The notes beneath the pieces were generated by a model, which was not told where the DNA came from, did not search any database, and worked only from the letters and a program-made list of their open reading frames with translations. From assembly GCA_000002445.1 (NCBI GenBank), contig CM000207.1, forward strand, positions 704,001 to 768,000: a stretch of DNA of 64,000 bases, in the 5' to 3' direction. Shown piece by piece: positions 8,597 to 25,018 of this stretch. The position numbers and the translations under genes were made by a program. The first letter of the stretch is position 1. Each line of letters opens with the position of its first letter. This DNA is from Trypanosoma brucei (lineage: Eukaryota).

Positions 8597-9553
8597 ATGG
8601 CTCCAGTAGTGTGGCCGTGCGCCCTTAACCCATCAAATCACATACTGGTGCAAGAGTTGCTGCTACACGCGTCATTAGGTCGTCACCGCCATTCCCTGAG
8701 GGACAGAAAGGACTTTTTTCACCTTGCTAGGCACATTTCCTGCCTCAAAGAACCTTGCAAATACCTCGTTTCTGCGCCACCAACCTCTCGTGGACCACTG
8801 TGGGCTCCTTGGCGAAGCACAGTCCCCCGGCAAATAGTTTTCAATCGTATACTCCGTCAGTGCACCGATACTTATACGCAATCATCCCATAAAGAAGACA
8901 AAGAAGACGAGGAGGGGAGACGCGTACCAGTGTTTTATGATGATGCCATTGCTCATTTGAACAGAATAGCAGAAGAACTGGGGCCACACGGATACAAAGT
9001 AACTCTGGTCGGAGCACTGCGACGCGGGTGCCCCGTTGCTTCCCGAGCTGAGTTCCTTTTGACGTACGATGATGACGATAGAATCAGGAAACATCGTGAC
9101 AACGACACCACTGTGTCCCACAGTGTTCATTTTGAGCGAGCGATACAGGGACTAAGGGCTTCCGGATACATCAAGCATCATAGGACAAAAAGAAAGATTG
9201 ATATTCACACAAAACAGTACATAACACTTGCTTCTAGGTCCCATTCACATCCAGAAACCCTCTCCACATCACGAGAGGAAAGACAGGTTTTGTCTATTAC
9301 CTGGTCAAAACCACAACAGTTTCACACGCGGCAGCTGTTCCTCACGGGCCCGAACCCATTCGTGGTGCACCTTGTGCTGCTGGCCCATGCGAAGGGCCTG
9401 GGACTGGATCCTTGCGGGTTGTACAAATCCCAATTAGGGTTTCGGGAGTCTGTGGCACTTGAATGTGAAAGGGACATCTTCGCTGCGTTGCAGTTGCCGT
9501 ACGTTGAGCCCATTCACCGCCATGCATACTGCCGCGTTCACAACCTGTTTTGA
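8597..9553 (+). CDS. Pol X family (DNA polymerase beta-like) nucleotidyltransferase-fold protein, possibly non-canonical
   Basis: The C-terminal half aligns by eye to Pol beta palm and thumb. GALRRG(x5)AEFLLTYDDDD corresponds to GSFRRG(x5)DMDVLLTHP. KRKIDIHTKQY corresponds to RRIDIRLIPKDQY. FLTGPNPFVVHLVLLAHAKGLGL corresponds to [21 protein letters not shown]. The C-terminal ERDIFAALQLPYVEPIHRHA corresponds to the Pol X tail E(x)DIF..LGL.Y.EP..R. The two positions aligned to catalytic Asp190/Asp192 read R and E here. Confidence 0.45.
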   Translation: MAPVVWPCALNPSNHILVQELLLHASLGRHRHSLRDRKDFFHLARHISCLKEPCKYLVSAPPTSRGPLWAPWRSTVPRQIVFNRILRQCTDTYTQSSHKEDKEDEEGRRVPVFYDDAIAHLNRIAEELGPHGYKVTLVGALRRGCPVASRAEFLLTYDDDDRIRKHRDNDTTVSHSVHFERAIQGLRASGYIKHHRTKRKIDIHTKQYITLASRSHSHPETLSTSREERQVLSITWSKPQQFHTRQLFLTGPNPFVVHLVLLAHAKGLGLDPCGLYKSQLGFRESVALECERDIFAALQLPYVEPIHRHAYCRVHNLF

Positions 9554-9728
9554 GAGCGCCCGCGCCTTCCTTTTATTTGTTCTCCATGGGATATTGCTGT
9601 TCTTTAACTTCCTAACTGTATGGTTTTCTGTCGCATGTGTCGTCACAGACGCGCATCACTTTTTATACGACTAGATATGCCGCGTTACAGAGACCTATCG
9701 ATTGCCTGATTAAGTACTCTTGCAGGTG

Positions 9729-9793
9729 TTGCTTTGTCTTCTCCGCACTATTACTCATTCCCTTTTTCTTTACTGATTTTTTCTGGTATGAAG
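9729..9793 (+). promoter_or_regulatory. polypyrimidine tract plus AG (putative trans-splice acceptor region for RPS7)
   Basis: ttgctttgtcttctccgcactattactcattccctttttctttactgattttttctggtatgaAG lies immediately upstream of the RPS7 ATG. The same tract precedes the BRAP2-like gene at 22716 to 22750. Confidence 0.4.
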
Positions 9794-9815
9794 GCACTTC
9801 TATACACTAAGGGTG

Positions 9816-10424
9816 ATGTCCGCACAACCGCACCTCCGCAAGCTGCGTAAGCTCAAGCGCGCCAACCCGTCTCAGGAGGAGGAGGGCGTCGCGAGGGTGC
9901 TCTTTGAATTGGAAGGCTCCCACAAGACTCTCCGCGCGCAGTTGCCCCGCTTCCATATAAACACTGTTCGCACGTCGTCGAGTCCCCGTCACAAGAAGAC
10001 AGCTATGATCATTTTGTACCCGTTGCGTTTTATCATGCTTGTACGCAAGATTCAGCGAACGCTTACGGCAGAGCTCGAGAAGCGCTTCCCCGGAAACATT
10101 GTTGTGCTTGTTGCGCAGCGCAAGATAACGAAGCGACCGAATGATGTGTACAAGCTTCAGCAGGTGCAACGTTCCCGTACGAGCGTAGCGGTGTTTGAGA
10201 ATATCTTGAATGATCTTATATATCCGTGTGACGTGGTGGGCCGCCGTTGGCGTTACCGTACGGATGGGAGTAAGCTGATGAAAGTGTTCTTGGACGCCCG
10301 TGACCGCAAGAGGGTGGAGTCGAGACTTCCCCTTCTTGCCCACGTCTACAAGTTGTTGACGCACCGAACTGTCACCTTCGGGTTCATGTGGAACCCTAAG
10401 TTGCAGCAAGTGTCCTCCCGGTAG
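9816..10424 (+). CDS. RPS7: 40S ribosomal protein S7 (eS7), copy 1
   Basis: MSAQPHLRKLRKLKR..IVVLVAQRKI..RTLTAELEKRF..RSRTSVAVFENILNDLIYPCDVVGRRWRYRTDGSKLMKVFLDARDRK..VYKLLTHRTVTFGF aligns along its length with eukaryotic RPS7 (human ...[46 protein letters not shown]...). The track ORF starts at GTG 9813; the first ATG is at 9816. Confidence 0.85.
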   Translation: MSAQPHLRKLRKLKRANPSQEEEGVARVLFELEGSHKTLRAQLPRFHINTVRTSSSPRHKKTAMIILYPLRFIMLVRKIQRTLTAELEKRFPGNIVVLVAQRKITKRPNDVYKLQQVQRSRTSVAVFENILNDLIYPCDVVGRRWRYRTDGSKLMKVFLDARDRKRVESRLPLLAHVYKLLTHRTVTFGFMWNPKLQQVSSR

Positions 10425-10975
10425 ATGAGTTTCGCCCAGCTACTTTGAAGGTGCCATTATCAGTTTTTTGTTTTGATTTATTTTCACTACGCTGCCATCC
10501 TCGGTTGTGTAGTGCTAGAAAATGAAATGACACATGTCAGTACTGAAACTAGTGTAAGTTACAACCTCGAAGCTGCCTGTGTTTCCATGTTAGTCACCCC
10601 TTTGACATTTTCTTACCTTTTTGCTCATTAGTATTTTATGCTGGTGATAGACGCCCACTTTGGTGGTTCCTATGTGATGCAGCGAGTGAGATGAGGTGGC
10701 ATGCTATACTTCACTTCCGTGAGCTGCGTCACCACAGGTTCACCAACCCCTTCTCCACTGCGTGAGGATCGCGTGGTAAAAGCGTTTTCCGTGTTGGTGT
10801 CTTGTAGTAGAGTCATCCGAATGTGCCTCTCGCGGATAATGTGATTTATGTTTCCCACTGTTGCAGGCGGCTGCGAGTAGTCGGGTGCATCACAGATCAG
10901 CTTAGATTTCGCACAAGATCTGAGGCCCCGGAAGGTGTTTTCAAGCCTCTTCCTTATCGTCTTGGCGCTACGTTG

Positions 10976-11143
10976 TGGTTACTCCAATCGCATACCAACC
11001 AAGGCCTGAATGCCAGGATATCGAGCTTAGGAGCGAATATCGACAAGGCCAGACAGCGTGGCGAACAGCAGGTTGCGTTAAAGGAAGAGGAGTTAAGGGA
11101 TCTGCAGGGGAGACTTGAGAGTTTGATGAGGGATTTGGAGTGA
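10976..11143 (+). pseudogene. orphan 3' fragment (last 55 codons) of the BRAP2-like gene fused behind RPS7
   Basis: The track ORF 10823 to 11143 ends with LLQSHTNQGLNARISSLGANIDKARQRGEQQVALKEEELRDLQGRLESLMRDLE. That is identical to the C-terminus of the 22777 to 24432 gene. The upstream 51 codons have no counterpart in that gene and begin at GTG. Confidence 0.5.
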
Positions 11144-11543
11144 TGGTTTTCGGCGTCGTCTTGTCATCCCATCCCGCCTCCCTTCCGTATCATGCTGCGT
11201 CATTCCCCTTCGCCACTTATCAACACAGTCGTGTGCACTCCTACTGTTCTCACATCAGTCAGTGCAGCTTAGTTACCTCGTTTGGCTTACTTTGACTTAA
11301 GTACCTTTTTTTGTGCTCATTGCGGTTGCTGTATGACTGCCAGCTCTCAGATGTCTGGACTTTCCATTCTCTTTATGTTGACCCTACACACCTGCCCCAC
11401 ACTGCATTTCCCCCCACCGTTCCCTGTTTGCACCTTCCTGCTGTATGGGTGGTGTAAAATACCCATTAGCATTATAGCAGTTGGTGGCTTGTTAATAACT
11501 GAAGTTCGGATTACCGTGGCGAGTAAAGGTTTCCGGTGATATT

Positions 11544-12629
11544 ATGGTCGTCAAACGCCGTGGAAATGGCCGGTTAGGCAAACCTCCGACAGATACTGGA
11601 GTGAGTGAGAACTCTACCGGTGGAACCCCACCCCCGGAGTCTGCTTCTCAACGTGGCGGGGCGAAACAAACTACGGTTGCTTCCGCGATCAAGCAGCCCG
11701 CTTCGATGCCCGACGGCTCGTTGTCGCAGGATCGACGAAAGCGCCGCCGTAGGTTATCGGTGCCAGAGGAGGTGGCCCATGCCGTTGTGGAGGGGGAAGA
11801 AGCTACAGGTGCTGTAAGGGATGAAAGACTACCCGAAAATACTCGAGTTGTTGAACCTCAATTGAATGATCATGATGGTAAAGAGAGATACCCTCTGGGC
11901 GTTGTCCAGTTCCCAGAGGAGCAGCGCCCGTGGAGGAGCGCAAGGCGTAAAGCTGGGGTAGCTGAGGGAGGTAGTGACGAGGTTAACGCCGCACAGCTTC
12001 CTCCGACGGGCAACGCTGTGCCGCAGAAACCAACTAGGCGTTTAGGTAGAGCATCTGCCCCTCCGATACCACCTGTCGGTACTGTTGAACATGATTTGCA
12101 GACAACTGGTGGAACGTGTACGAGTGCTCCTATTGCGGGTGACCGCGCTTCCCGAACGTTTCAGGCGGCGGCGAGCCCCTCCGAAGATATTAAACAAAGG
12201 CCGCATAGAATTCCATTGATAATAGATAAGGGGCGTTTCAGTAAGCAAAAAGTCGAGGCTCCTCCCGGGACCGCAACCGTGGTGCCCATGGACACTGGAG
12301 AAAACCAGGCTGGCGTTTGTGAAGCAAACTCCGCACCACCAACTTCCTGTTCCCACCGTGGCGCCCAGCGCTTGGGGCATGGCCAACCTGCTGATGGCAC
12401 AAGTGGTGCTGTTGATAGTATAGAGGAGGGGCCCGGGCGCGGAATTGAGGAAGCCTCCGTGGACGCGCGACGTAGGAGGTTTATGCAGGTGCCGGTGAGC
12501 AGAATCTCGTTGTATACACGGCTTGCCGAGGGGGGTTTGGATGCTGCCGACCGCCCATTTGTCACATGTGTGGTAAAACATGCCCAATCGTCTGTTTCCG
12601 CATGGGTATCCGGGTTCTTGTCGCCTTGA
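11544..12629 (+). CDS. hypothetical protein (361 aa), Pro/Arg/Ser-rich, copy 1
   Basis: ORF from an ATG, duplicated at 18031 to 19116 with 3 aa differences. Low-complexity basic and proline-rich composition; no motif recognised. Confidence 0.45.
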   Translation: MVVKRRGNGRLGKPPTDTGVSENSTGGTPPPESASQRGGAKQTTVASAIKQPASMPDGSLSQDRRKRRRRLSVPEEVAHAVVEGEEATGAVRDERLPENTRVVEPQLNDHDGKERYPLGVVQFPEEQRPWRSARRKAGVAEGGSDEVNAAQLPPTGNAVPQKPTRRLGRASAPPIPPVGTVEHDLQTTGGTCTSAPIAGDRASRTFQAAASPSEDIKQRPHRIPLIIDKGRFSKQKVEAPPGTATVVPMDTGENQAGVCEANSAPPTSCSHRGAQRLGHGQPADGTSGAVDSIEEGPGRGIEEASVDARRRRFMQVPVSRISLYTRLAEGGLDAADRPFVTCVVKHAQSSVSAWVSGFLSP

Positions 12630-13920
12630 TGTGAGTGATGCTTTTATTTTTTCTTTGGAGGTGTGCGAATTTCTGTTTCTTGAAACAGATACTGACCGAT
12701 GGAGGGTCGTTGTTTTTCTTAGTTGGCTGTGCTGCTGGTGAAAGCACATTGTGAATGGGATAAATGGGTGTGAGGGTTTTCTTTCTAAATTTCTGCTGGC
12801 GGTTTATCCCTCATATTGTTTGCCTGAACTGGAGTGAATACAGTTCTCTTTTTGATACGGCTTCCTTTGCCGGTTGAACGGGGACACGCCTTCTTATTGG
12901 TTCTGTCGTGTACGCTTTTTCAGTGTAGTATTGGAGGGACTAACAGTGTGAGGAGCGGTGCCGAACCCAGTTGAACGCCTGTCATTGTGTGTGATGCCTG
13001 TACAACCGTGTTTCGGTTGCTTTGATTGCTCGATTGGCTGTGCGGCAGCCGTTGTGAAGGTGATGTAATCCCTTCAGTTGATGTGGCTTCTGCAGGTTGT
13101 TTCTTCCGGTGCGCGGGAACGGCAGACATAAGTGGTATATGTTTGGCTAGATACCGGCACTACTCTATAGGTTTACTTTTACTCTACTTTTTTTTTGTGT
13201 GTGTGCTTCCACTCACTTTGGTGTTCTGTTGCTGAGGCGGTGTTGCAACTGTGTCAGTGAACAGTACGCCATCTACGGATAGCACTACCGGCAGTCGGTT
13301 GCCGCTGGCGGTTGCTCATGAGGAGGTTTGTATTTACCTGCCGGTGGGTTGGCTTCTTGATGGGAGGTTAACAGGCGTGGGTGCCTTGTATGGTATCAGA
13401 TATTTCTCTAGGATGAAGGTTATGCACCATTACCATACCGTGGAGTTCGCCGTAATAAGGTGAAGTCATTTGAGCAGTAGTTCCTTTTGCTGTCATCTCT
13501 TGGTATATTATTGCCAAAAATACCTGTGCTATTGCTGCTACGTTGTAACCATGTCCTCTTTTGTGTTCAGTAACGGGGGTAGTGACTGTGACGACATATT
13601 CCGAGGCCGCATCGAGTTGTGTTTGACATTTGCCCTCCGTGTCGTAGCTTATACAACCTTCGTGGGTGGTGGTGCACATGTTTGTGTGCCCTGCAACGTC
13701 GCCGTTCACTACTTCAATTTTTTTGTACCCACTTGCGGATGAAACTTTTAGTCGGTATGTTCCCTTCTGGAATGACAGAGGGGAAGGACTGGTGATGTGC
13801 CGGTCGTCCCTCATTGTTGGTCTTTTCTCTTCTTGAACACGTAAATGCAAGCAGTGTCATAGCTATATTTTGGGGTGAAGAAAGGGCGAGGTTCACCTTC
13901 ATTTGGTTGGATTGCTGGGT

Positions 13921-14535
13921 ATGTCTACATCCCGCATTACGTTGTCGTCACAGCACGATGCACTGATAATTGTGGATATGCAGAATGATTTCGTGCTTCC
14001 CGACGGTGCGCTCTCCGTAACTGGTGCCACTGAGATCATACCGATAATTAATCGCGTTGTCGGAGATCACCAGTTTCGTGCCGTTGTCGCATCGATGGAC
14101 TGGCACCCTCCTGGACACATGTCGTTCCGAAATGAAGATGGGACAGGGGGTCCATGGCCTCCCCATTGCGTACGGTCAACGACTGGTGCCCAACTTCATT
14201 CAGAGATGAAACAAGGAGAGATAACCCACCTTATTCACAAGGCGACATCTCTGGATTCTGAAAGTTACTCCGCCTTCAGCGATGACAGCGGTAAGACAAC
14301 CGGTCTGGCTGCAATGCTGCGCGCCATGGACGTGAGAAGGGTTTTTATGTGTGGCGTAGCTTCCGATTACTGTGTATACTTTACCTCACTACACGCTATC
14401 CAAGAGGAATTTACCGTTGTTGTGTTGGAGGACGCCGTTCGCCCCGTCGACCCTGTTGCCATGGAGAAGAAGCGAGCACACCTGGAAAAGGAGGGCGTAA
14501 TCTTTGCGCGAAGCACAGACCTTTCCAGCTTCTGA
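13921..14535 (+). CDS. nicotinamidase / pyrazinamidase (isochorismatase family), copy 1
   Basis: ALIIVDMQNDFVLPDGALSV...WHPPGHMSF...WPPHCVRSTTGAQLH...VFMCGVASDYCVYFTSLHA carries the Asp, Lys and Cys catalytic-triad context and the metal-binding His/Asp pattern typical of PncA-type nicotinamidases. The track ORF begins at TTG 13903; the first ATG is at 13921. Confidence 0.75.
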   Translation: MSTSRITLSSQHDALIIVDMQNDFVLPDGALSVTGATEIIPIINRVVGDHQFRAVVASMDWHPPGHMSFRNEDGTGGPWPPHCVRSTTGAQLHSEMKQGEITHLIHKATSLDSESYSAFSDDSGKTTGLAAMLRAMDVRRVFMCGVASDYCVYFTSLHAIQEEFTVVVLEDAVRPVDPVAMEKKRAHLEKEGVIFARSTDLSSF

Positions 14536-15808
14536 GTCGGAGGTGGCTTCTTCTAGTGGTTCCTCCAGAAGTGTGGGACCGCGTAGGTGTGCCTAAGTGA
14601 TGAACGACAGGATGGAATGTAATGTGCTAATAATATGGGGCTGGGTGGCGGTGGTGGTGGTGAGCATGTCAAGGCGTACAGTGAGGGCTAGGTATATGCA
14701 ATCACCACCGTTATCATTGATTCTCAAGTGCATATTCCCAATAGGGCCACACATGCGCTCATGTACGGTCTCCTAAGGTGTATGTATGTGTGCGTTAGGT
14801 GTGTATGAAGCGAGCAAAGAAGAGAGGGGGGTCGAAATGGATGGCTCGGCAAACGGGTCTGCCAACTATTTTCTTCCCTCTCCCTTGGTTCTATTGCCTT
14901 GGTCGTTTTGCCATTTGAAAGACCTCTTCTTTGTTTTTTCTTCCATTGCACCGCGCCCGTCCCCGACGCCACCGGGTTCCCATTTTTTTTGTAACTGAAA
15001 AGAGGGACGGTACTGACACTTGGGGCGAATAACGGACACTAAGCGAACCTCACCCCTGAGTCTTCCCCACAAGGTGTTGGTTGCCGCGCAACAGAAGAAA
15101 TGGCGGGGTAGTAAGTGATGTGCGCGCGTACATGCACGATCCTGCGCGGCATCCGAAATTAATGGGCGGCGAGCTTTTGCTTACGGTTGGCCCTTGACAT
15201 GTGCGTTCAAATGGTGATGCCCTTCCATCATTTGCCGCAGTAACTTTTTTCCAGTGCAAACTCACAAGACATGCATTTGGAACATATTGGCGCTGGGGAT
15301 GTCAGGTGCCAACAGGGGTACTCTGTTTAATTGACGGTCAATAGCAGACAGCGTTTGTGTGATCTCCCTTTACCAGGCTGCAGATCCGTAGGGGTTGCCG
15401 AGTGGGAAGCCATCCGTTACGTTCCTGTCCCATTCCTCTCTTCCTCACACATGATGGTCGCAGCCGCCTGTAGGTATAATGTATTACCTATGGGTACAGT
15501 GAGCATTTGTTTGGAATAAAATGCCTTTTGCGACCATACAACAACCTACGCGTAATCGGCTACACTTATGCCTGAGCTGGTCGTGCGTAGGTCGCGTGTC
15601 TTGAAGGATGGTGCCGGGTTGACATGGGCTTCGGACTCTCATGAAGAGTGTCGATTCTTGTGGTATGCGCTGGTGCTATTTATATTGGAGTGATGTCTAC
15701 TGTGTGGAATCACAGCATGATGGCTTTGTGTGACGATTACCCGCCATTGGATTGAAATGTACTGCTTTGAACAGGTTGTGTGGCTGTGCCCACTGTCATT
15801 AATCGTAT

Positions 15809-16040
15809 TTACACGCGGCAGCTGTTCTTCACGGGCCCGAACCCATTCGTGATGCACCTTGTGCTGCTAACCCATGCGAAGGGCCTGGGACTGGATCCTT
15901 GAGGGTTGTACAAATCCCAATTAGGGTTTCGGGAGTCTGTGGCACTTGAATGTGAAAGGGACATCTTCGCTGCGTTGCAGTTGCCGTACGTTGAGCCCAT
16001 TCACCGCCATGCATACTGCCGCGTTCACAACCTGTTTTGA
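15809..16040 (+). pseudogene. detached 3' fragment of the Pol X-like gene (last ~77 codons)
   Basis: Translation TRQLFFTGPNPFVMHLVLLTHAKGLGLDPxGLYKSQLGFRESVALECERDIFAALQLPYVEPIHRHAYCRVHNLF matches the C-terminus of 8597 to 9553. The upstream sequence is unrelated to that gene. Confidence 0.45.
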
Positions 16041-16302
16041 GAGCGCCCGCGCCTTCCTTTTATTTGTTCTCCATGGGATATTGCTGTTCTTTAACTTCCT
16101 AACTGTATGGTTTTCTGTCGCATGTGTCGTCACAGACGCGCATCATTTTTTATACGACTAGATATGCCGCGTTACAGAGACCTATCGATTGCCTGATTAA
16201 GTACTCTTGCAGGTGTTGCTTTGTCTTCTCCGCACTATTACTCATTCCCTTTTTCTTTACTGATTTTTTCTGGTATGAAGGCACTTCTATACACTAAGGG
16301 TG

Positions 16303-16911
16303 ATGTCCGCACAACCGCACCTCCGCAAGCTGCGTAAGCTCAAGCGCGCCAACCCGTCTCAGGAGGAGGAGAGCGTCGCGAGGGTGCTCTTTGAATTGGA
16401 AGGCTCCCACAAGACTCTCCGCGCGCAGTTGCCCCGCTTCCATATAAACACTGTTCGCACGTCGTCGAGTCCCCGTCACAAGAAGACAGCTATGATCATT
16501 TTGTACCCGTTGCGTTTTATCATGCTTGTACGCAAGATTCAGCGAACGCTTACGGCAGAGCTCGAGAAGCGCTTCCCCGGAAACATTGTTGTGCTTGTTG
16601 CGCAGCGCAAGATAACGAAGCGACCGAATGATGTGTACAAGCTTCAGCAGGTGCAACGTTCCCGTACGAGCGTAGCGGTGTTTGAGAATATCTTGAATGA
16701 TCTTATATATCCGTGTGACGTGGTGGGCCGCCGTTGGCGTTACCGTACGGATGGGAGTAAGCTGATGAAAGTGTTCTTGGACGCCCGTGACCGCAAGAGG
16801 GTGGAGTCGAGACTTCCCCTTCTTGCCCACGTCTACAAGTTGTTGACGCACCGAACTGTCACCTTCGGGTTCATGTGGAACCCTAAGTTGCAGCAAGTGT
16901 CCTCCCGGTAG
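16303..16911 (+). CDS. RPS7: 40S ribosomal protein S7 (eS7), copy 2
   Basis: Identical to copy 1 except G25S (EEEGVARV becomes EEESVARV). Confidence 0.85.
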   Translation: MSAQPHLRKLRKLKRANPSQEEESVARVLFELEGSHKTLRAQLPRFHINTVRTSSSPRHKKTAMIILYPLRFIMLVRKIQRTLTAELEKRFPGNIVVLVAQRKITKRPNDVYKLQQVQRSRTSVAVFENILNDLIYPCDVVGRRWRYRTDGSKLMKVFLDARDRKRVESRLPLLAHVYKLLTHRTVTFGFMWNPKLQQVSSR

Positions 16912-17462
16912 ATGAGTTTCGCCCAGCTACTTTGAAGGTGCCATTATCAGTTTTTTGTTTTGATTTATTTTCACTACGCTGCCATCCTCGGTTGTGTAGT
17001 GCTAGAAAATGAAATGACGCATGTCAGTACTGAAACTAGTGTAAGTTACAACCTCGAAGCTGCCTGTGTTTCCATGTTAGTCACCCCTTTGACATTTTCT
17101 TACCTTTTTGCTCATTAGTATTTTATGCTGGTGATAGACGCCCACTTTGGTGGTTCCTATGTGATGCAGCGAGTGAGATGAGGTGGCATGCTATACTTCA
17201 CTTCCGTGAGCTGCGTCACCACAGGTTCACCAACCCCTTCTCCACTGCGTGAGGATCGCGTGGTAAAAGCGTTTTCCGTGTTGGTGTCTTGTAGTAGAGT
17301 CATCCGAATGTGCCTCTCGCGGATAATGTGATTTATGTTTCCCACTGTTGCAGGCGGCTGCGAGTAGTCGGGTGCATCACAGATCAGCTTAGATTTCGCA
17401 CAAGATCTGAGGCCCCGGAAGGTGTTTTCAAGCCTCTTCCTTATCGTCTTGGCGCTACGTTG

Positions 17463-17630
17463 TGGTTACTCCAATCGCATACCAACCAAGGCCTGAATGC
17501 CAGGATATCGAGCTTAGGAGCGAATATCGACAAGGCCAGACAGCGTGGCGAACAGCAGGTTGCGTTAAAGGAAGAGGAGTTAAGGGATCTGCAGGGGAGA
17601 CTTGAGAGTTTGATGAGGGATTTGGAGTGA
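17463..17630 (+). pseudogene. orphan 3' fragment of the BRAP2-like gene, copy 2
   Basis: Identical to 10976 to 11143. Confidence 0.5.
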
Positions 17631-18030
17631 TGTTTTTCGGCGTCGTCTTGTCATCCCATCCCGCCTCCCTTCCGTATCATGCTGCGTCATTCCCCTTCGC
17701 CACTTATCAACACAGTCGTGTGCACTCCTACTGTTCTCACATCAGTCAGTGCAGCTTAGTTACCTCGTTTGGCTTACTTTGACTTAAGTACCTTTTTTTG
17801 TGCTCATTGCGGTTGCTGTATGACTGCCAGCTCTCAGATGTCTGGACTTTCCATTCTCTTTATGTTGACCCTACACACCTGCCCCACACTGCATTTCCCC
17901 CCACCGTTCCCTGTTTGCACCTTCCTGCTGTATGGGTGGTGTAAAATACCCATTAGCATTATAGCAGTTGGTGGCTTGTTAATAACTGAAGTTCGGATTA
18001 CCGTGGCGAGTAAAGGTTTCCGGTGATATT

Positions 18031-19116
18031 ATGGTCGTCAAACGCCGTGGAAATGGCCGGTTAGGCAAACCTCCGACAGATACTGGAGTGAGTGAGAACT
18101 CTACCGGTGGAACCCCACCCCCGGAGTCTGCTTCTCAACGTGGCGGGGCGAAACAAACTACGGTTGCTTCCGCGATCAAGCAGCCCGCTTCGATGCCCGA
18201 CGGCTCGTTGTCGCAGGATCGACGAAAGCGCCGCCGTAGGTTATCGGTGCCAGAGGAGGTGGCCCATGCCGTTGTGGAGGGGGAAGAAGCTACAGGTGCT
18301 GTAAGGGATGAAAGACTACCCGAAAATACTCAAGTTGTTGAACCTCAATTGAATGATCATGATGGTAAAGAGAGATACCCTCTGGGCGTTGTCCAGTTCC
18401 CAGAGGAGCAGCGCCCGTGGAGGAGCGCAAGGCGTAAAGCTGGGGTAGCTGAGGGAGGTAGTGACGAGGTTAACGCCGCACAGCTTCCTCCGACGGGCAA
18501 CGCTGTGCCGCAGAAACCAACTAGGCGTTTAGGTAGAGCATCTGCCCCTCCGATACCACCTGTCAGTACTGTTGAACATGATTTGCAGACAACTGGTGGA
18601 ACGTGTACGAGTGCTCCTATTGCGGGTGACCGCGCTTCCCGAACGTTTCAGGCGGCGGCGAGCCCCTCCGAAGATATTAAACAAAGGCCGCATAGAATTC
18701 CATTGATAATAGATAAGGGGCGTTTCAGTAAGCAAAAAGTCGAGGCTCCTCCCGGGACCGCAACCGTGGTGCCCATGGACACTGGAGAAAACCAGACTGG
18801 CGTTTGTGAAGCAAACTCCGCACCACCAACTTCCTGTTCCCACCGTGGCGCCCAGCGCTTGGGGCATGGCCAACCTGCTGATGGCACAAGTGGTGCTGTT
18901 GATAGTATAGAGGAGGGGCCCGGGCGCGGAATTGAGGAAGCCTCCGTGGACGCGCGACGTAGGAGGTTTATGCAGGTGCCGGTGAGCAGAATCTCGTTGT
19001 ATACACGGCTTGCCGAGGGGGGTTTGGATGCTGCCGACCGCCCATTTGTCACATGTGTGGTAAAACATGCCCAATCGTCTGTTTCCGCCTGGGTATCCGG
19101 GTTCTTGTCGCCTTGA
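18031..19116 (+). CDS. hypothetical protein (361 aa), copy 2
   Basis: Differs from copy 1 at 3 positions (R to Q, G to S, A to T). Confidence 0.45.
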   Translation: MVVKRRGNGRLGKPPTDTGVSENSTGGTPPPESASQRGGAKQTTVASAIKQPASMPDGSLSQDRRKRRRRLSVPEEVAHAVVEGEEATGAVRDERLPENTQVVEPQLNDHDGKERYPLGVVQFPEEQRPWRSARRKAGVAEGGSDEVNAAQLPPTGNAVPQKPTRRLGRASAPPIPPVSTVEHDLQTTGGTCTSAPIAGDRASRTFQAAASPSEDIKQRPHRIPLIIDKGRFSKQKVEAPPGTATVVPMDTGENQTGVCEANSAPPTSCSHRGAQRLGHGQPADGTSGAVDSIEEGPGRGIEEASVDARRRRFMQVPVSRISLYTRLAEGGLDAADRPFVTCVVKHAQSSVSAWVSGFLSP

Positions 19117-20407
19117 TGTGAGTGATGCTTTTATTTTTTCTTTGGAGGTGTGCGAATTTCTGTTTCTTGAAACAGATACTGACCGATGGAGGGTCGTTGT
19201 TTTTCTTAGTTGGCTGTGCTGCTGGTGAAAGCACATTGTGAATGGGATAAATGGGTGTGAGGGTTTTCTTTCTAAATTTCTGCTGGCGGTTTATCCCTCA
19301 TATTGTTTGCCTGAACTGGAGTGAATACAGTTCTCTTTTTGATACGGCTTTCTTTGCCGGTTGAACGGGGACACGCCTTCTTATTGGTTCTGTCGTGTAC
19401 GCTTTTTCAGTGTAGTATTGGAGGGACTAACAGTGTGAGGAGCGGTGCCGAACCCAGTTGAACGCCTGTCATTGTGTGTGATGCCTGTACAACCGTGTTT
19501 CGGTTGCTTTGATTGCTCGATTGGCTGTGCGGCAGCCGTTGTGAAGGTGATGTAATCCCTTCAGTTGATGTGGCTTCTGCAGGTTGTTTCTTCCGGTGCG
19601 CGGGAACGGCAGACATAAGTGGTATATGTTTGGCTAGATACCGGCACTACTCTATAGGTTTACTTTTACTCTACTTTTTTTTTGTGTGTGTGCTTCCACT
19701 CACTTTGGTGTTCTGTTGCTGAGGCGGTGTTGCAACTGTGTCAGTGAACAGTACGCCATCTACGGATAGCACTACCGGCAGTCGGTTGCCGCTGGCGGTT
19801 GCTCATGAGGAGGTTTGTATTTACCTGCCGGTGGGTTGGCTTCTTGATGGGAGGTTAACAGGCGTGGGTGCCTTGTATGGTATCAGATATTTCTCTAGGA
19901 TGAAGGTTATGCACCATTACCATACCGTGGAGTTCGCCGTAATAAGGTGAAGTCATTTGAGCAGTAGTTCCTTTTGCTGTCATCTCTTGGTATATTATTG
20001 CCAAAAATACCTGTGCTATTGCTGCTACGTTGTAACCATGTCCTCTTTTGTGTTCAGTAACGGGGGTAGTGACTGTGACGACATATTCCGAGGCCGCATC
20101 CAGTTGTGTTTGACATTTGCCCTCCGTGTCGTAGCTTATACAACCTTCGTGGGTGGTGGTGCACATGTTTGTGTGCCCTGCAACGTCGCCGTTCACTACT
20201 TCAATTTTTTTGTACCCACTTGCGGATGAAACTTTTAGTCGGTATGTTCCCTTCTGGAATGACAGAGGGGAAGGACTGGTGATGTGCCGGTCGTCCCTCA
20301 TTGTTGGTCTTTTCTCTTCTTGAACACGTAAATGCAAGCAGTGTCATAGCTATATTTTGGGGTGAAGAAAGGGCGAGGTTCACCTTCATTTGGTTGGATT
20401 GCTGGGT

Positions 20408-21022
20408 ATGTCTACATCCCGCATTACGTTGTCGTCACAGCACGATGCACTGATAATTGTGGATATGCAGAATGATTTCGTGCTTCCCGACGGTGCGCTC
20501 TCCGTAACTGGTGCCACTGAGATCATACCGATAATTAATCGCGTTGTCGGAGATCACCAGTTTCGTGCCGTTGTCGCATCGATGGACTGGCACCCTCCTG
20601 GACACATGTCGTTCCGAAATGAAGATGGGACAGGGGGTCCATGGCCTCCCCATTGCGTACGGTCAACGACTGGTGCCCAACTTCATTCAGAGATGAAACA
20701 AGGAGAGATAACCCACCTTATTCACAAGGCGACATCTCTGGATTCTGAAAGTTACTCCGCCTTCAGCGATGACAGCGGTAAGACAACCGGTCTGGCTGCA
20801 ATGCTGCGCGCCATGGACGTGAGAAGGGTTTTTATGTGTGGCGTAGCTTCCGATTACTGTGTATACTTTACCTCACTACACGCTATCCAAGAGGAATTTA
20901 CCGTTGTTGTGTTGGAGGACGCCGTTCGCCCCGTCGACCCTGTTGCCATGGAGAAGAAGCGAGCACACCTGGAAAAGGAGGGCGTAATCTTTGCGCGAAG
21001 CACAGACCTTTCCAGCTTCTGA
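20408..21022 (+). CDS. nicotinamidase (isochorismatase family), copy 2
   Basis: Protein identical to copy 1. Confidence 0.75.
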   Translation: MSTSRITLSSQHDALIIVDMQNDFVLPDGALSVTGATEIIPIINRVVGDHQFRAVVASMDWHPPGHMSFRNEDGTGGPWPPHCVRSTTGAQLHSEMKQGEITHLIHKATSLDSESYSAFSDDSGKTTGLAAMLRAMDVRRVFMCGVASDYCVYFTSLHAIQEEFTVVVLEDAVRPVDPVAMEKKRAHLEKEGVIFARSTDLSSF

Positions 21023-22295
21023 GTCGGAGGTGGCTTCTTCTAGTGGTTCCTCCAGAAGTGTGGGACCGCGTAGGTGTGCCTAAGTGATGAACGACAGGAT
21101 GGAATGTAATGTGCTAATAATATGGGGCTGGGTGGCGGTGGTGGTGGTGAGCATGTCAAGGCGTACAGTGAGGGCTAGGTATATGCAATCGCCACCGTTA
21201 TCATTGATTCTCAAGTGCATATTCCCAATAGGGCCACACATGTGCTCATGTACGGTCTCCTAAGGTGTATGTATGTGTGCGTTAGGTGTGTATGAAGCGA
21301 GCAAAGAAGAGAGGGGGGTCGAAATGGATGGCTCGGCAAACGGGTCTGCCAACTATTTTCTTCCCTCTCCCTTGGTTCTATTGCCTTGGTCGTTTTGCCA
21401 TTTGAAAGACCTCTTCTTTGTTTTTTCTTCCATTGCACCGCACCCGTCCCCGACGCCACCGGGTTCCCATTTTTTTTGTAACTGAAAAGAGGGACGGTAC
21501 TGACACTTGGGGCGAATAACGGACACTAAGCGAACCTCACCCCTGAGTCTTCCCCACAAGGTGTTGGTTGCCGCGCAACAGAAGAAATGGCGGGGTAGTA
21601 AGTGATGTGCGCGCGTACATGCACGATCCTGCGCGGCATCCGAAATTAATGGGCGGCGAGCTTTTGCTTACGGTTGGCCCTTGACATGTGCGTTCAAATG
21701 GTGATGCCCTTCCATCATTTGCCGCAGTAACTTTTTTCCAGTGCAAACTCACAAGACATGCATTTGGAACATATTGGCGCTGGGGATGTCAGGTGCCAAC
21801 AGGGGTACTCTGTTTAATTGACGGTCAATAGCAGACAGCGTTTGTGTGATCTCCCTTTACCAGGCTGCAGATCCGTAGGGGTTGCCGAGTGGGAAGCCAT
21901 CCGTTACGTTCCTGTCCCATTCCTCTCTTCCTCACACATGATGGTCGCAGCCGCCTGTAGGTATAATGTATTACCTATGGGTACAGTGAGCATTTGTTTG
22001 GAATAAAATGCCTTTTGCGACCATACAACAACCTACGCGTAATCGGCTACACTTATGCCTGAGCTGGTCGTGCGTAGGTCGCGTGTCTTGAAGGATGGTG
22101 CCGGGTTGACATGGGCTTCGGACTCTCATGAAGAGTGTCGATTCTTGTGGTATGCGCTGGTGCTATTTATATTGGAGTGATGTCTACTGTGTGGAATCAC
22201 AGCATGATGGCTTTGTGTGACGATTACCCGCCATTGGATTGAAATGTACTGCTTTGAACAGGTTGTGTGGCTGTGCCCACTGTCATTAATCGTAT

Positions 22296-22527
22296 TTACA
22301 CGCGGCAGCTGTTCTTCACGGGCCCGAACCCATTCGTGATGCACCTTGTGCTGCTAACCCATGCGAAGGGCCTGGGACTGGATCCTTGCGGGTTGTACAA
22401 ATCCCAATTAGGGTTTCGGGAGTCTGTGGCACTTGAATGTGAAAGGGACATCTTCGCTGCGTTGCAGTTGCCGTACGTTGAGCCCATTCACCGCCATGCA
22501 TACTGCCGCGTTCACAACCTGTTTTGA
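22296..22527 (+). pseudogene. detached 3' fragment of the Pol X-like gene, copy 3
   Basis: Track ORF 22267 to 22527 (86 aa) reproduces the last ~77 residues of 8597 to 9553. Confidence 0.45.
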
Positions 22528-22749
22528 GAGCGCCCGCGCCTTCCTTTTATTTGTTCTCCATGGGATATTGCTGTTCTTTAACTTCCTAACTGTATGGTTT
22601 TCTGTCGCATGTGTCGTCACAGACGCGCATCATTTTTTATACGACTAGATATGCCGCGTTACAGAGACCTATCGATTGCCTGATTAAGTACTCTTGCAGG
22701 TGTTGCTTTGTCTTCTCCGCACTATTACTCATTCCCTTTTTCTTTACTG
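22296..22749 (+). repeat. partial third copy of the tandem unit (Pol X-like 3' fragment plus downstream UTR and polypyrimidine tract)
   Basis: Matches 9322 to 9775 and 15809 to 16262. Homology ends inside the pyrimidine tract ctttttctttactgatt, after which the BRAP2-like gene body begins. Confidence 0.75.
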
Positions 22750-22776
22750 ATTGGTGTTGATAGTATATTTTTTGAA

Positions 22777-24432
22777 ATGAGTGTCACCGGCTTCGGTGAT
22801 GTTGTTGTATCTTTTGATGCGGAAGGTGTTGTAGTTGTTGGGCTAACTTATGAGCGTTCAAATGCGACACAGTGGTTGCTGCTCCCGGAAATTCCCGTTG
22901 AAGTCCCTCTTGTTAAGGTTCTTCGTGATCTTGAGGAATCTGGTGCTTCTCGACAACGGTCACCTGGTCGAATGAGGGGAGAAGGAGTTAAAGGAGATGT
23001 TTGTTTGCCAGACAGTGAAGTTGGATCACCTTGTAACGCGTGCGGTGTTAATAACATTCGTAGTGATTGTTGCATTTCTGTTGCTCGTGTGGGGCACATT
23101 CCGGAACGAAATCGCGCATACTGTTTGCTTTTGGAGTTGTCATCTTCTTCTGATGCCGCTGATGTGCAAAGAGATCTGCTGCACGTCGAGTGGGCTAATG
23201 GGCCCTTGTGTGCACCGCAGTTTTTGCAGTCCGTCGGCCGTATAATGAGGGTGGAGCATGAAGGGCGTGATGCCGCATGCGTGAGCAACTGCGCGGGTTG
23301 GCGGACACAAGTGTCTACGGACAATGCGGAAGATGTTTGCCTACGTGTCCTTTGCAGTGTGTCGTGCGGTGTTGATGGGGCGTCATCTCGGCGGCAGTTG
23401 GAAAGTGAAAAGGAGATATCTAGCGTTGCGCTCCGGAGAGACGCTCCTCTAGCACCGATAGAAGAGTTTTGCCCCATCTGCCGTGAGGAAATCGCATCTG
23501 GAAGAACGTGCGTTGTTACTATGTGCACCCACGTCTTCCACCTTGTTTGCCTCATGAAGCACTTAGAAGATGTTAGTTCATATTGCCCTCTTTGTCGTTT
23601 TTCGATGTCGTCTCTTGAAACTAAGTGCAACGCGTGTGGAACGTGCCAGGACTTGTGGAGTTGTTTAGTTTGCGGTTGGGTGGGATGTGGTAAGGGGCGG
23701 CACGGACATAGCATACGGCACTTCCACAGCACAGGGCACTCGTGTGCCGTGCAGAATAGCACTTCACGCATATGGAACTATCGCGCCAGCACATTTCTCC
23801 ACCACCAACTAGCTATGGAATTGGGTTACGAAGACGACGCAAGGGCGGAGCGTGCTGCAGCGCAGGAGGAGGGCAGGTCGGCCCTCTCTGTTCGTCACAG
23901 CGGGGAAAAACCCAGGGTCAGTGCTTCATCCTATTGGCGCAGTAGGTGGTGGTGGGACGAAAAGGAAGAGGAAGCTGCACAAGAGCTCAATGGCGACTAT
24001 GTGCGGGAGTATTATCTCCGTGTAATGGAGGAACTCATGCAGGAACAGGCGGACTATTTTGAGGGGCGTACAATGGTGGAGGGAGAGAATGCGGCTGTAC
24101 CCATCGGGACATGGAAGAAGCTGCAAAGCGCAGAACGGCGTCAACGGCGTAGTCTTGCTTCGAGGTACATTGCTGGTTTGCGCCGTATTGCGCTACACAG
24201 CCAGATGGCCGTCAACAATTTTGTGAAGCAGGAGGTCTTATGGAGGGATTCGTTGCGTGAAGAGTTATTACTCCAATCGCATACCAACCAAGGCCTGAAT
24301 GCCAGGATATCGAGCTTAGGAGCGAATATCGACAAGGCCAGACAGCGTGGCGAACAGCAGGTTGCGTTAAAGGAAGAGGAGTTAAGGGATCTGCAGGGGA
24401 GACTTGAGAGTTTGATGAGGGATTTGGAGTGA
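22777..24432 (+). CDS. BRAP2/IMP-like E3 ubiquitin ligase (RING-H2 plus ZnF-UBP plus coiled coil)
   Basis: The RING-H2 is CPICREEIASGRTCVVTMCTHVFHLVCLMKHLEDVSSYCPLCR. The ZnF-UBP is CNACGTCQDLWSCLVCGWVGCGKGRHGHSIRHFHSTGHSCAVQNSTSRIWNY, which follows the BRAP2 pattern C..CG....LW.CL.CG..GCGR...HA..H...H. A long E/R/Q-rich coiled coil follows. The track ORF starts at TTG 22708; the first ATG is at 22777. Confidence 0.65.
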   Translation: MSVTGFGDVVVSFDAEGVVVVGLTYERSNATQWLLLPEIPVEVPLVKVLRDLEESGASRQRSPGRMRGEGVKGDVCLPDSEVGSPCNACGVNNIRSDCCISVARVGHIPERNRAYCLLLELSSSSDAADVQRDLLHVEWANGPLCAPQFLQSVGRIMRVEHEGRDAACVSNCAGWRTQVSTDNAEDVCLRVLCSVSCGVDGASSRRQLESEKEISSVALRRDAPLAPIEEFCPICREEIASGRTCVVTMCTHVFHLVCLMKHLEDVSSYCPLCRFSMSSLETKCNACGTCQDLWSCLVCGWVGCGKGRHGHSIRHFHSTGHSCAVQNSTSRIWNYRASTFLHHQLAMELGYEDDARAERAAAQEEGRSALSVRHSGEKPRVSASSYWRSRWWWDEKEEEAAQELNGDYVREYYLRVMEELMQEQADYFEGRTMVEGENAAVPIGTWKKLQSAERRQRRSLASRYIAGLRRIALHSQMAVNNFVKQEVLWRDSLREELLLQSHTNQGLNARISSLGANIDKARQRGEQQVALKEEELRDLQGRLESLMRDLE

Positions 24433-24976
24433 TGTTTTTCGGCGTCGTCTTGTCATCCCATCCCGCCCCCCTTCCGTATCATGCTGCGTCATTCCCCTTC
24501 GCCACTTATCAACACAGTCGTGTGCACTCCTACTGTTCTCACATCAGTCAGTGCAGCTTAGTTACCTCGTTTGGCTTACTTTGACTTAAGTACCTTTTTT
24601 TGTGCTCATTGCGGTTGCTGTATGACTGCCAGCTCTCAGATGTCTGGACTTTCCATTCTCTTTATGTTGACCCTACACACCTGCCCCACACTGCATTTCC
24701 CCCCACCGCTCCCTGTTTGCACCTTCCTGCTGTATGGGTGGTGTAAAATACCCATTAGCATTATAGCAGTTGGTGGCTTGTTAATAACTGAAGTTCGGAT
24801 TACCGTGGCGAGTAAAGGTTTCCGGTGATATTATGGTCGTCAAACGCCGTGGAAATGGCCGGTTAGGCAAACCTCCGACAGATACTGGAGTGAGTGAGAA
24901 CTCTACCGGTGGAACCCCACCCCCGGAGTCTGCTTCTCAACGTGGCGGGGCGAAACAAACTACGGTTGCTTCCGCG
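24270..24976 (+). repeat. dispersed copy of the T segment (BRAP2 3' end, intergenic, first 48 codons of the 361-aa gene)
   Basis: Near-identical to 10976 to 11687 and 17463 to 18174. ORFs 24571 to 24828 and 24833 onward mirror 11282 to 11539 and 11544 onward. Confidence 0.75.
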
Positions 24977-25018
24977 ATGGAGGTGCTTCCGTTTGTTTTC
25001 CTTTGGTGCCTTGATTAA
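24833..25018 (+). pseudogene. truncated start of the 361-aa hypothetical gene (48 conserved codons, then unrelated sequence and a stop)
   Basis: MVVKRRGNGRLGKPPTDTGVSENSTGGTPPPESASQRGGAKQTTVASA is identical to copies 1 and 2 and then diverges into MEVLPFVFLWCLD followed by a stop. Confidence 0.4.

What the first reader, a model, noticed from the sequence alone, without database searches (positions are those of the whole stretch)
9322..22749. Indel-free 6,487-bp tandem duplication carrying RPS7, a 361-aa gene and nicotinamidase
Two complete units plus a 454-bp start of a third are collinear at a constant 6,487-nt offset. About 6.5 kb has no length difference and roughly one substitution per 500 bp, for example RPS7 G25S and three changes in the 361-aa protein. 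This is either a very recent duplication, ongoing concerted evolution, or an assembly representation of a copy-number-variable array. Gene dosage of RPS7 and nicotinamidase depends on which.
Basis: seen in the sequence. Interest (0 to 1): 0.6.

Follow-up and report, generated by a model that had tools for sequence, protein, structure and literature searches.

The report
Known three-gene tandem duplication, T. brucei
This is a real but already catalogued 6.5-kb head-to-tail duplication on Trypanosoma brucei chromosome 9 that doubles the genes for ribosomal protein S7, a conserved hypothetical protein and nicotinamidase; it is an ordinary copy-number-variable gene array, not a new kind of feature.

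Summary
Unit 1 (9321-15807) and unit 2 (15808-22294) are collinear at a constant 6,487-nt offset. They differ by 18-19 substitutions and no indels. A 458-bp start of a third unit follows (22295-22752).

It is already published. Jackson 2007 lists it as array 81a on TREU927 chromosome 9: S7 / Tb09.v1.0130 / isochorismatase-family, 2 copies, with the same CDS lengths and the same span. Jackson et al. 2010 list it as one unit in T. b. gambiense DAL972 against two in T. b. brucei, with the per-gene distances I recompute.

Three things are new here.
- The "third unit start" is a 458-bp low-copy repeat that also flanks the single DAL972 unit. It is the natural substrate for unequal crossing-over.
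- A 711-bp segment of each unit recurs at 24268-24978.
- Gene order in T. cruzi, T. theileri, T. grayi and T. vivax shows an older T. brucei rearrangement. It moved the BRAP2-like RING gene and left three gene relics.

Strain-specific substitutions shared by all repeat copies show gene conversion. True copy number in the source strain cannot be read from assemblies. Interest is low.

The parts
9321..15807 (+). Repeat unit 1 (6,487 bp). It carries the 3' end of the pol-beta-thumb gene, RPS7, a BRAP2 3' relic, the 361-aa gene and nicotinamidase.
   Evidence: Constant-offset identity and blastn self-match.
15808..22294 (+). Repeat unit 2 (6,487 bp). It differs from unit 1 by 18-19 substitutions and no indels.
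22295..22752 (+). Copy a3 of the 458-bp low-copy repeat 'A' (the 'partial third unit'). It holds a dead 3' fragment of the 318-aa gene plus 225 nt of intergenic sequence. It ends 24 nt upstream of the BRAP2-like ATG.
   Evidence: The same repeat sits after the single unit in DAL972.
9321..9778 (+). Copy a1 of repeat A. It is the functional last 233 nt of the 318-aa gene plus 225 nt of downstream intergenic sequence with a pyrimidine-rich tract. It ends 37 nt upstream of the RPS7 ATG.
15808..16265 (+). Copy a2 of repeat A, at the unit 1/unit 2 junction. It matches a3 at 9323-9659. It has a private TGC>TGA change at 15902.
8597..9553 (+). 318-aa gene with a DNA polymerase beta thumb domain. The left edge of the repeat falls inside it at codon 242.
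   Evidence: Pfam PF14791, E 4.5e-13. The orthologue lies at the same position in T. cruzi, T. theileri and T. grayi.
9816..10424 (+). RPS7 copy 1 (202 aa, Gly24, the derived state).
   Evidence: Pfam Ribosomal_S7e..
16303..16911 (+). RPS7 copy 2 (202 aa, Ser24). It is identical to the DAL972 and T. b. equiperdum proteins.
   Evidence: Exact-protein look-up.
10979..11689 (+). Copy b1 of the 711-bp repeat 'B'. It holds a relic of the last 54 codons of the BRAP2-like gene (10979-11143), that gene's downstream region, and the first 146 nt of the 361-aa ORF.
17466..18176 (+). Copy b2 of repeat B, in unit 2.
24268..24978 (+). Copy b3 of repeat B. It holds the functional 3' end of the BRAP2-like gene and its downstream region. 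It also holds a 146-nt relic of the 361-aa gene's 5' end (from 24833). The relic reads on into a 61-codon chimeric ORF ending about 25018.
11544..12629 (+). 361-aa conserved hypothetical gene, copy 1. It is the positional and sequence orthologue of the gene between BRAP2 and nicotinamidase in other trypanosomes.
   Evidence: E 7e-17 to the T. cruzi counterpart, conserved C-terminal ~50 aa. One search found only T. brucei-group hits by word search.
18031..19116 (+). 361-aa gene, copy 2 (R101Q, G179S, A256T relative to copy 1).
13921..14535 (+). Nicotinamidase copy 1 (204 aa, isochorismatase family).
   Evidence: Pfam. Exact matches in DAL972 and T. equiperdum. GenBank EAN76480.1 and EAN76485.1 carry this sequence.
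20408..21022 (+). Nicotinamidase copy 2, identical in nucleotide sequence to copy 1.
22777..24432 (+). BRAP2-like RING / zf-UBP gene (551 aa). It is single-copy and lies downstream of the array. In other trypanosomes it lies between RPS7 and the 361-aa gene orthologue.
   Evidence: Pfam, homologues and synteny.

Best explanation
**What it is.** The region is a genuine segmental tandem duplication of a three-gene block: RPS7, a conserved hypothetical 361-aa protein, and nicotinamidase. It lies on T. brucei brucei TREU927 chromosome 9. It is catalogued as tandem array 81a, and the nicotinamidase paralogues are named Tb927.9.3970 and Tb927.9.4040.

**Shown.**
- Two units lie head to tail.
- A 458-bp direct repeat (A) bounds the block on both sides. 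A is the last 233 nt of the upstream pol-beta-thumb gene plus 225 nt of intergenic DNA.
- In T. b. gambiense DAL972 the same 458-bp repeat flanks a single unit.
- Copies of the repeated segments within a strain share strain-specific substitutions.

**Inferred: how copy number changes.** The number of units moves between one and two by unequal crossing-over between the A repeats, or between whole units once two exist. Gene conversion keeps the copies alike.

**Inferred: effect.** Trypanosome genes are transcribed polycistronically without individual promoters. The practical effect is therefore a doubling of template for the three genes.

**Inferred: older history.** The ancestral trypanosome order was pol-beta-thumb gene, RPS7, BRAP2, X, nicotinamidase, then the 1314-aa gene. 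The T. brucei lineage rearranged this. The likely route was a larger tandem duplication followed by reciprocal deletions, or one complex template-switching event. The result placed BRAP2 after nicotinamidase. It also created the A and B repeats as gene relics.
For: **Repeat anatomy.** Searches give the anatomy, and the effect of each substitution.

**Published identity.**
[quoted passage not shown] The CDS lengths are the same. The 11,207-nt span equals window 9816-21022.
- The neighbouring array 82 in that catalogue (acyl-CoA synthetase x4, 710678-723319) maps exactly to window 35926-48567.
- Jackson et al. 2010, Table 1a: Tbg972.9.1930-1950, 3 genes, 2 copies in T. b. brucei, distances 0.0016 / 0.0037 / 0. 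These equal my 1/609, 4/1086 and 0/615.
- PMC10994559 names the two nicotinamidase paralogues.

**One-unit allele.** DAL972 chr 9 (FN554972.1) is collinear with the window minus exactly one unit. It keeps A on both sides.

**Second two-unit assembly.** In T. b. equiperdum CM010680.1, RPS7 lies at 209560 and 216044 and BRAP2 at 222515. Its sequence is of the DAL972 type, not the window type, so it was not copied from TREU927.

**Junction copy as unequal crossing-over predicts.**
- In T. b. equiperdum, a2 is a3-like at 9383 and a1-like at 9717.
- In the window, a2 is a3-like through 9659.

**Gene conversion.** Eight strain-specific differences are shared by all B copies, including b3, which lies outside the unit.

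**Ancestral order and relics.** Searches give the order in other trypanosomes. One search confirms the relics. Searches show X is orthologous.
Against: - No read-level data were available. The number of units in the sequenced strain rests on assemblies. Jackson et al. 2010 warn that the assembled number of repeat units can be arbitrary.
- The DAL972 single unit could be a collapsed assembly.
- The T. b. equiperdum assembly used little PacBio data and TREU927 for chromosome ordering. Linking accession GCA_003543875.1 to strain IVM-t1 is my inference. Its support for two units is therefore not fully independent.
- The hybrid pattern in junction copy a2 rests on one informative site per side.
- One shared ancient duplication with homogenisation cannot be separated from independent duplications in each lineage.
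- The older rearrangement pathway is a reconstruction. Only one parental side of each junction survives, so microhomology could not be tested.
Confidence: 0.85

Rival explanations
1. Assembly artefact. The genome has one unit, and the assembler stacked two alleles or two read sets in tandem through the 458-bp repeat.
For: - The junction paths C-A and A-RPS7 both exist in a one-unit genome. A false C-A-RPS7 path is therefore conceivable.
- DAL972 shows one unit.
- Jackson et al. 2010 warn that assembled copy number can be arbitrary.
Against: - Junction copy a2 has a private substitution (15902) and is not simply a duplicate of a1 or a3.
- The units differ at 12 further sites spread over 6 kb.
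- A second assembly, with a different sequence haplotype, has the same two-unit structure.
- The array has been carried as two annotated copies in the curated reference since 2005-2007, and both nicotinamidase paralogues have been targeted experimentally.
Confidence: 0.04
2. Collapsed larger array. The true genome carries three or more units, and the reference shows only two.
For: - Near-identical 6.5-kb units are hard to count with Sanger or short reads.
- The T. equiperdum OVI scaffolds break exactly at repeats A and B.
- Jackson et al. 2010 give a general caveat on assembled copy number.
Against: - Two different assemblies both give exactly two units.
- No third unit-specific variant set is visible.
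- This remains untested at read level.
Confidence: 0.1
3. A single very recent duplication in the TREU927 lineage with no homogenisation. The 18 differences are simply mutations that arose since the event.
For: - At every one of the 18 sites one unit keeps the DAL972/equiperdum state, as expected for new mutations.
- Unit divergence (0.20% outside A) is about one third of the divergence from DAL972.
Against: - T. b. equiperdum also has two units on a different haplotype. That requires either a second, independent duplication or an old duplication plus homogenisation.
- Gene conversion is demonstrably active at this locus between B copies 6.8 kb apart.
Confidence: 0.3

Closest known systems
T. 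brucei tandem array 81a (Jackson 2007, BMC Evol Biol 7:54, Additional file), also listed as a species-specific segmental duplication Tbg972.9.1930-1950 (Jackson et al. 2010, PLoS NTD 4:e658, Table 1a)
   Same: It is the same object. The chromosome, gene trio, CDS lengths (609/1086/615), 11,207-nt span, copy number (2) and per-gene distances (0.0016/0.0037/0) all match.
   Different: - The papers give a unit length of 6,350 bp. The exact period here is 6,487 bp.
- In the text I read, they do not describe the 458-bp flanking repeat, the 711-bp internal repeat or the gene relics.
Low-copy-repeat-mediated copy-number variation by non-allelic homologous recombination / unequal crossing-over. This is the mechanism proposed for trypanosome tandem arrays in Jackson 2007.
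   Same: - Direct repeats of 458 bp at more than 98.4% identity flank a 6-kb segment in the one-unit allele.
- The two-unit allele has a junction copy with the polarity expected of a crossover product.
   Different: No crossover has been observed directly. Replication slippage or template switching would give the same product.
Concerted evolution of trypanosome tandem genes. Examples are the neighbouring acyl-CoA synthetase array and the RPS7 tandem pairs of T. cruzi and T. theileri.
   Same: - Paralogues within a genome are closer to each other than to orthologues in another strain.
- The RPS7 pairs in T. cruzi and T. theileri show the same pattern.
   Different: Here homogenisation also reaches non-functional gene relics (repeat B), and not only the functional tandem units.
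Duplication followed by reciprocal gene loss (fractionation), or a complex replication-based rearrangement (FoSTeS/MMBIR), as a route to local changes in gene order
   Same: The T. brucei order can be derived from the ancestral order by one tandem duplication of the block and three deletions. Each deletion would leave exactly the relic that is observed.
   Different: This is a reconstruction only. The intermediate is not observed, and the T. congolense order could not be obtained.

Membership tests
Published T. brucei TREU927 chr 9 tandem array 81a (RPS7 / hypothetical / nicotinamidase) | Same three CDS lengths and the same span from the first to the last CDS | tested here: met
   The catalogue gives 609/1086/615 nt and 684568-695774, a span of 11,207 nt. 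The window's CDSs are 609, 1086 and 615 nt, and 9816-21022 is 11,207 nt.
Published T. brucei TREU927 chr 9 tandem array 81a (RPS7 / hypothetical / nicotinamidase) | Same inter-copy distances per gene | tested here: met
   Published values are 0.0016 / 0.0037 / 0. Observed values are 1/609 = 0.0016, 4/1086 = 0.0037 and 0/615.
Published T. brucei TREU927 chr 9 tandem array 81a (RPS7 / hypothetical / nicotinamidase) | Same neighbouring array at the published distance | tested here: met
   Array 82 (acyl-CoA synthetase x4, 710678-723319) maps to window 35926-48567 with the same offset of 674,752.
Tandem segmental duplication | Head-to-tail collinear copies at a constant offset, with identity far above background | tested here: met
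   Offset 6,487, 99.7% identity over 6.9 kb, no indels.
Unequal crossing-over (NAHR) copy-number variant | Direct low-copy repeats flank the segment in the low-copy allele | tested here: met
   DAL972 has 458-bp A copies at L005 9506-9963 and 15990-16447 around one unit.
Unequal crossing-over (NAHR) copy-number variant | The junction repeat in the duplicated allele is a chimera: downstream-copy sequence on the left and upstream-copy sequence on the right | tested here: inconclusive
   The equiperdum a2 copy has C at 9383 (as a3) and T at 9717 (as a1). The window a2 is a3-like through 9659, with no informative site further right. The pattern is consistent but rests on very few sites.
Unequal crossing-over (NAHR) copy-number variant | Copy number differs between individuals or strains at read level | not testable with these tools
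   Only assemblies were available: 1 unit in DAL972, 2 in the window and in T. b. equiperdum. No reads or depth data could be used.
Concerted evolution by gene conversion | Copies whose duplication predates the strain split share strain-specific substitutions | tested here: met
   Repeat B has the same junctions in all three genomes. Eight sites (11111, 11180, 11250, 11305 indel, 11403, 11492, 11662 and, in part, 11318) differ between strains but are the same in all copies within a strain.
Assembly artefact (false duplication) | Copies carry no distinguishing variants, and the structure is absent from other assemblies | tested here: not met
   The units differ by 18-19 substitutions and junction copy a2 has a private variant. 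A second assembly, on a different haplotype, has two units.
Ribosomal protein S7e | Full-length match to Pfam PF01251 above the gathering score | tested here: met
   202.6 bits against a cut-off of 33.5, model positions 2-182 of 182. The protein is 83-86% identical to T. cruzi, T. theileri and T. grayi RPS7.
Nicotinamidase (isochorismatase family) | Isochorismatase-domain match and closest relatives named as nicotinamidases. Enzymatic activity is a separate question. | tested here: met
   PF00857 scores 84.6 bits against a cut-off of 27. Homologues across trypanosomatids and prokaryotes are named nicotinamidase/pyrazinamidase. Activity itself cannot be tested with these tools.

The most novel reading that the evidence does not exclude
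The T. brucei lineage lost the ancestral tight RPS7 tandem pair during a duplication-and-reciprocal-loss rearrangement. The same rearrangement moved BRAP2 behind nicotinamidase and swapped untranslated regions. BRAP2 now sits behind the pyrimidine tract that also precedes RPS7. RPS7 is now followed by the BRAP2 3' relic and its UTR. Under this reading, the 6.5-kb duplication is maintained because it restores two RPS7 templates, and nicotinamidase and the 361-aa gene are carried along. If the single DAL972 unit is real, T. b. gambiense runs on half the RPS7 gene dosage.
Probability: 0.2. Interest if true: 0.3.

Novelty: already known. Interest (0 to 1): 0.12.

Why it matters
It matters little beyond bookkeeping. 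The duplication sets the template number for RPS7 and nicotinamidase, an NAD-salvage enzyme studied as a drug target in Leishmania. Trypanosomes regulate expression largely through gene dosage and untranslated regions. Anyone knocking out or silencing these genes must target both copies, as published RNAi work already does.

The anatomy worked out here has modest added value. It comprises the flanking 458-bp repeat, the 711-bp relic repeat and the ancestral gene order. It gives a clean small example of how one rearrangement creates the repeats that later drive copy-number change and gene conversion. It also supplies simple PCR and read-depth assays for typing strains.

Tried and rejected
1. 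**T. equiperdum OVI contig CZPT02001821.1 (L002).** It seemed to join an eIF4A-like DEAD helicase directly to the point where repeat B ends (window 11690). That hinted at a second genomic location for the nicotinamidase block. The junction is a 10-N scaffold gap, so I rejected the lead.

2. **Exact-protein look-ups with the window's own proteins.** I tried RPS7 copy 1, both 361-aa copies and the BRAP2-like protein. None found anything. The window's own assembly could not be fetched this way. I located the window through published coordinates instead.

3. **Homologues of the 361-aa protein.** The word-indexed search found only T. brucei-group proteins. Orthology came from synteny plus direct alignment.

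4. **T. congolense gene order, to date the older rearrangement.** The question is unresolved.

5. **Non-coding RNA cargo in the long intergenic parts of the unit.** There are no Rfam hits at E <= 0.1 and no tRNAs.

6. **A decayed second RPS7 copy, or a relic of the MFS transporter seen in T. theileri and T. grayi.** tblastn found neither.

7. **The two 250-aa ORFs at 32166 and 52001.** They are unrelated.

8. **Asymmetry of derived changes between units.** Outside repeat A the split is 9 to 3, which is not significant (binomial p = 0.15).

Full report
**1. Observation**

A self-comparison of the window confirms the repeat.
- Positions 9321-16265 match 15808-22752 at a constant offset of 6,487 nt, with 99.71% identity over 6.9 kb.
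- The single blastn gap is an edge effect at 9320. Base by base, 9324-15807 has 18 substitutions and no indel against 15811-22294.
- This gives unit 1 (9321-15807), unit 2 (15808-22294) and a 458-bp third start (22295-22752).
- The density is 1 substitution per about 350 bp rather than 1 per 500 bp.
- Pfam confirms Ribosomal_S7e and an isochorismatase-family (nicotinamidase) protein.

**2.

(a) Six of the differences lie in 9341-9659.
- There unit 1 holds the live 3' end of a 318-aa gene with a DNA polymerase beta thumb domain (8597-9553).
- Units 2 and 3 hold a truncated, dead copy of its last 77 codons. One of these copies has an in-frame stop.
- The left edge of the repeat therefore falls inside a gene.

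(b) A 711-bp segment B (10979-11689 and 17466-18176) recurs at 24268-24978, outside the array, with 2-3 mismatches.
- At 24268 it is the genuine 3' end (last 54 codons) and downstream region of a BRAP2-like RING/zf-UBP gene (22777-24432).
- Inside the units it is a relic of that gene end.
- The last 146 nt of B are the first 49 codons of the 361-aa ORF. A relic of that gene's 5' end therefore also sits after BRAP2, from 24833.

**3. Identity and prior knowledge**

The one-unit counterpart was found by exact-protein look-up in T. b. gambiense DAL972 chromosome 9 (FN554972.1), which is about 99.2% identical to the window.

Two papers already describe the duplication.
- Jackson et al. 2010 (PMC2854126, Table 1a) list 'Tbg972.9.1930-1950, chr 9, repeat unit 6350 bp, 3 genes, 2 copies in T. 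b. brucei: Ribosomal protein S7 0.0016, Hypothetical protein 0.0037, Nicotinamidase 0'. These distances equal 1/609, 4/1086 and 0/615.
[quoted passage not shown] It also lists array 82: acyl-CoA synthetase, 4 copies, 710678-723319.

Both arrays map onto the window with the same offset, at 9816-21022 and 35926-48567. The window is therefore TREU927 chromosome 9, about 674,753-738,752 in that release.

Two further records agree.
- A 2024 paper names the two nicotinamidase paralogues Tb927.9.3970 and Tb927.9.4040 and silences both together.
- GenBank holds two TREU927 accessions with this protein sequence.

The finding is thus already known and annotated.

**4. Copy number in other assemblies**

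- DAL972 has exactly one unit. That unit is still followed by the 458-bp A repeat and then BRAP2.
- T. b. equiperdum CM010680.1 has exactly two units plus the A repeat. RPS7 lies at 209560 and 216044, and BRAP2 at 222515.
- The T. b. equiperdum sequence is of the DAL972 type, so it was not copied from TREU927.
- That assembly used MiSeq plus sparse PacBio data, and used TREU927 only to order contigs, if it is strain IVM-t1 as I infer.
- The T. equiperdum OVI scaffolds break at repeats A and B.
- Read-level copy number could not be tested.

**5. Mechanism of the one-to-two change**

The 'start of a third unit' is better described as the downstream member of a pair of 458-bp direct repeats that bracket the block even in the one-unit allele. 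Unequal crossing-over between these repeats yields the two-unit allele, and the reverse exchange yields the one-unit allele.

The junction copy a2 behaves as predicted.
- In T. b. equiperdum it carries the downstream-copy base at 9383 and the upstream-copy base at 9717.
- In the window it is downstream-like through 9659.
- The number of informative sites is small, so I count this as consistent rather than proven.

**6. Recent duplication or concerted evolution?**

The pairwise divergences are as follows.

| Comparison | Divergence |
|---|---|
| Window unit 1 vs unit 2, whole unit | 0.29% |
| Window unit 1 vs unit 2, outside A | 0.20% |
| Window units vs the DAL972 unit | 0.61-0.71% |
| DAL972 vs T. 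b. equiperdum | 0.10% |
| T. b. equiperdum unit 1 vs unit 2 | 0.07% |

- About 36 substitutions and 5 indels are shared by both window units against all DAL972 and equiperdum units.
- None of the window's unit differences is shared with the equiperdum unit differences.
- This means either independent duplications on two haplotypes, or one older duplication that has been homogenised. The data cannot separate the two.

Gene conversion at the locus is nevertheless demonstrated.
- Repeat B has identical junctions in all three genomes, so its duplication predates their divergence.
- Even so, eight strain-specific differences are present in all B copies of a strain. This includes b3, which lies outside the unit.

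**7. Older history**

Look-ups with BRAP2 orthologues gave the same gene order in other trypanosomes.
- T. cruzi, T. theileri and T. grayi show: pol-beta-thumb gene, RPS7 (two tight copies in T. cruzi and T. theileri), BRAP2, a 270-303-aa hypothetical gene, an MFS gene in some species, nicotinamidase, then a large AAA-like gene.
- The T. vivax contig covers the right-hand part of this order.
- The 270-303-aa gene is the orthologue of the 361-aa gene (E 7e-17, conserved C-terminal ~50 residues).

In T. brucei BRAP2 lies after nicotinamidase instead. Three relics mark the rearrangement.
- The BRAP2 3' end sits after RPS7.
- The 3' end of the pol-beta-thumb gene sits before BRAP2.
- The 5' end of the 361-aa gene sits after BRAP2.

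These relics are what a tandem duplication of the whole block would leave if three deletions followed, each removing one redundant gene copy. A single multi-switch replication event would give the same result. This is inference. Only one parental side of each junction survives, and the T. congolense order could not be obtained.

One consequence follows. The same pyrimidine-rich intergenic stretch now lies 37 nt upstream of the RPS7 ATG and 24 nt upstream of the BRAP2 ATG.

**8. Other checks**

- There are no Rfam or tRNA hits in the unit.
- There is no decayed extra RPS7 copy and no MFS relic.
- RPS7 residue 24 is Gly or Ser across trypanosomes, so the difference looks neutral.
- Minus-strand ORFs in the unit overlap the plus-strand genes or lie in intergenic DNA. 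All confirmed genes in the window are on the plus strand.

**9. Verdict**

It is ordinary, and it has been catalogued since 2007-2010. The added anatomy is tidy but not surprising for trypanosome tandem arrays. Interest is 0.12 and the novelty class is 'already known'.

Noticed in passing
window 35926-48567: A second tandem array holds four AMP-binding (fatty acyl-CoA synthetase) genes of 698/708/708/708 aa at a period of about 3.5 kb. The last three units are 97-98% identical, and the first is much more diverged. It corresponds to array 82 of Jackson 2007.
   Followed up: partly
window 24833-25018: A chimeric 61-codon ORF lies just downstream of the BRAP2-like gene. It consists of 48 codons of the 361-aa gene's 5' end, with that gene's upstream region, fused to unrelated sequence. 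It could still be trans-spliced as a relic transcript.
   Followed up: partly
window 9554-9778 and 22528-22752: The same 225-nt intergenic stretch with a pyrimidine-rich tract lies 37 nt upstream of the RPS7 ATG and 24 nt upstream of the BRAP2-like ATG. Both genes probably share their trans-splicing signal region.
   Followed up: no
L002 7760-7769 (T. equiperdum OVI CZPT02001821.1) and L007: The OVI scaffolds break or are N-joined exactly at the edges of repeats A and B. One scaffold joins an eIF4A-like helicase region to the nicotinamidase block across a 10-N gap, which is probably a mis-join.
   Followed up: yes
L006 14109-14789 / L008 1154-1834 (T. b. equiperdum CM010680.1): Unit 1 of this assembly is annotated with a 226-aa nicotinamidase instead of 204 aa. 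This coincides with a single-base insertion at window-equivalent 14341. It is likely a homopolymer error of the hybrid assembly rather than a real variant.
   Followed up: partly
L009 8213-9719 and L010 8172-9673: T. cruzi and T. theileri each carry two RPS7 genes as a tight tandem pair with a period of about 0.9 kb. The two copies are nearly identical within each species. T. brucei has one RPS7 per 6.5-kb unit.
   Followed up: partly
L003 and L004 (Logan contigs from ERR7929159 and ERR7929157): Short-read contigs of unidentified T. brucei-group samples start at the edge of repeat B. They end at window-equivalent 14710, next to the unit 1/unit 2 variant at 14704. This is as expected if those samples also carry two slightly different copies or alleles.
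   Followed up: no
window 1-64000: All confirmed genes lie on the plus strand, which fits a single polycistronic transcription unit. They are the Dymeclin-domain gene, the 704-aa gene, the pol-beta-thumb gene, the array, the BRAP2-like gene, the 1314-aa AAA-like gene, the acyl-CoA synthetases, a PRP3-like gene and sideroflexin.
   Followed up: no
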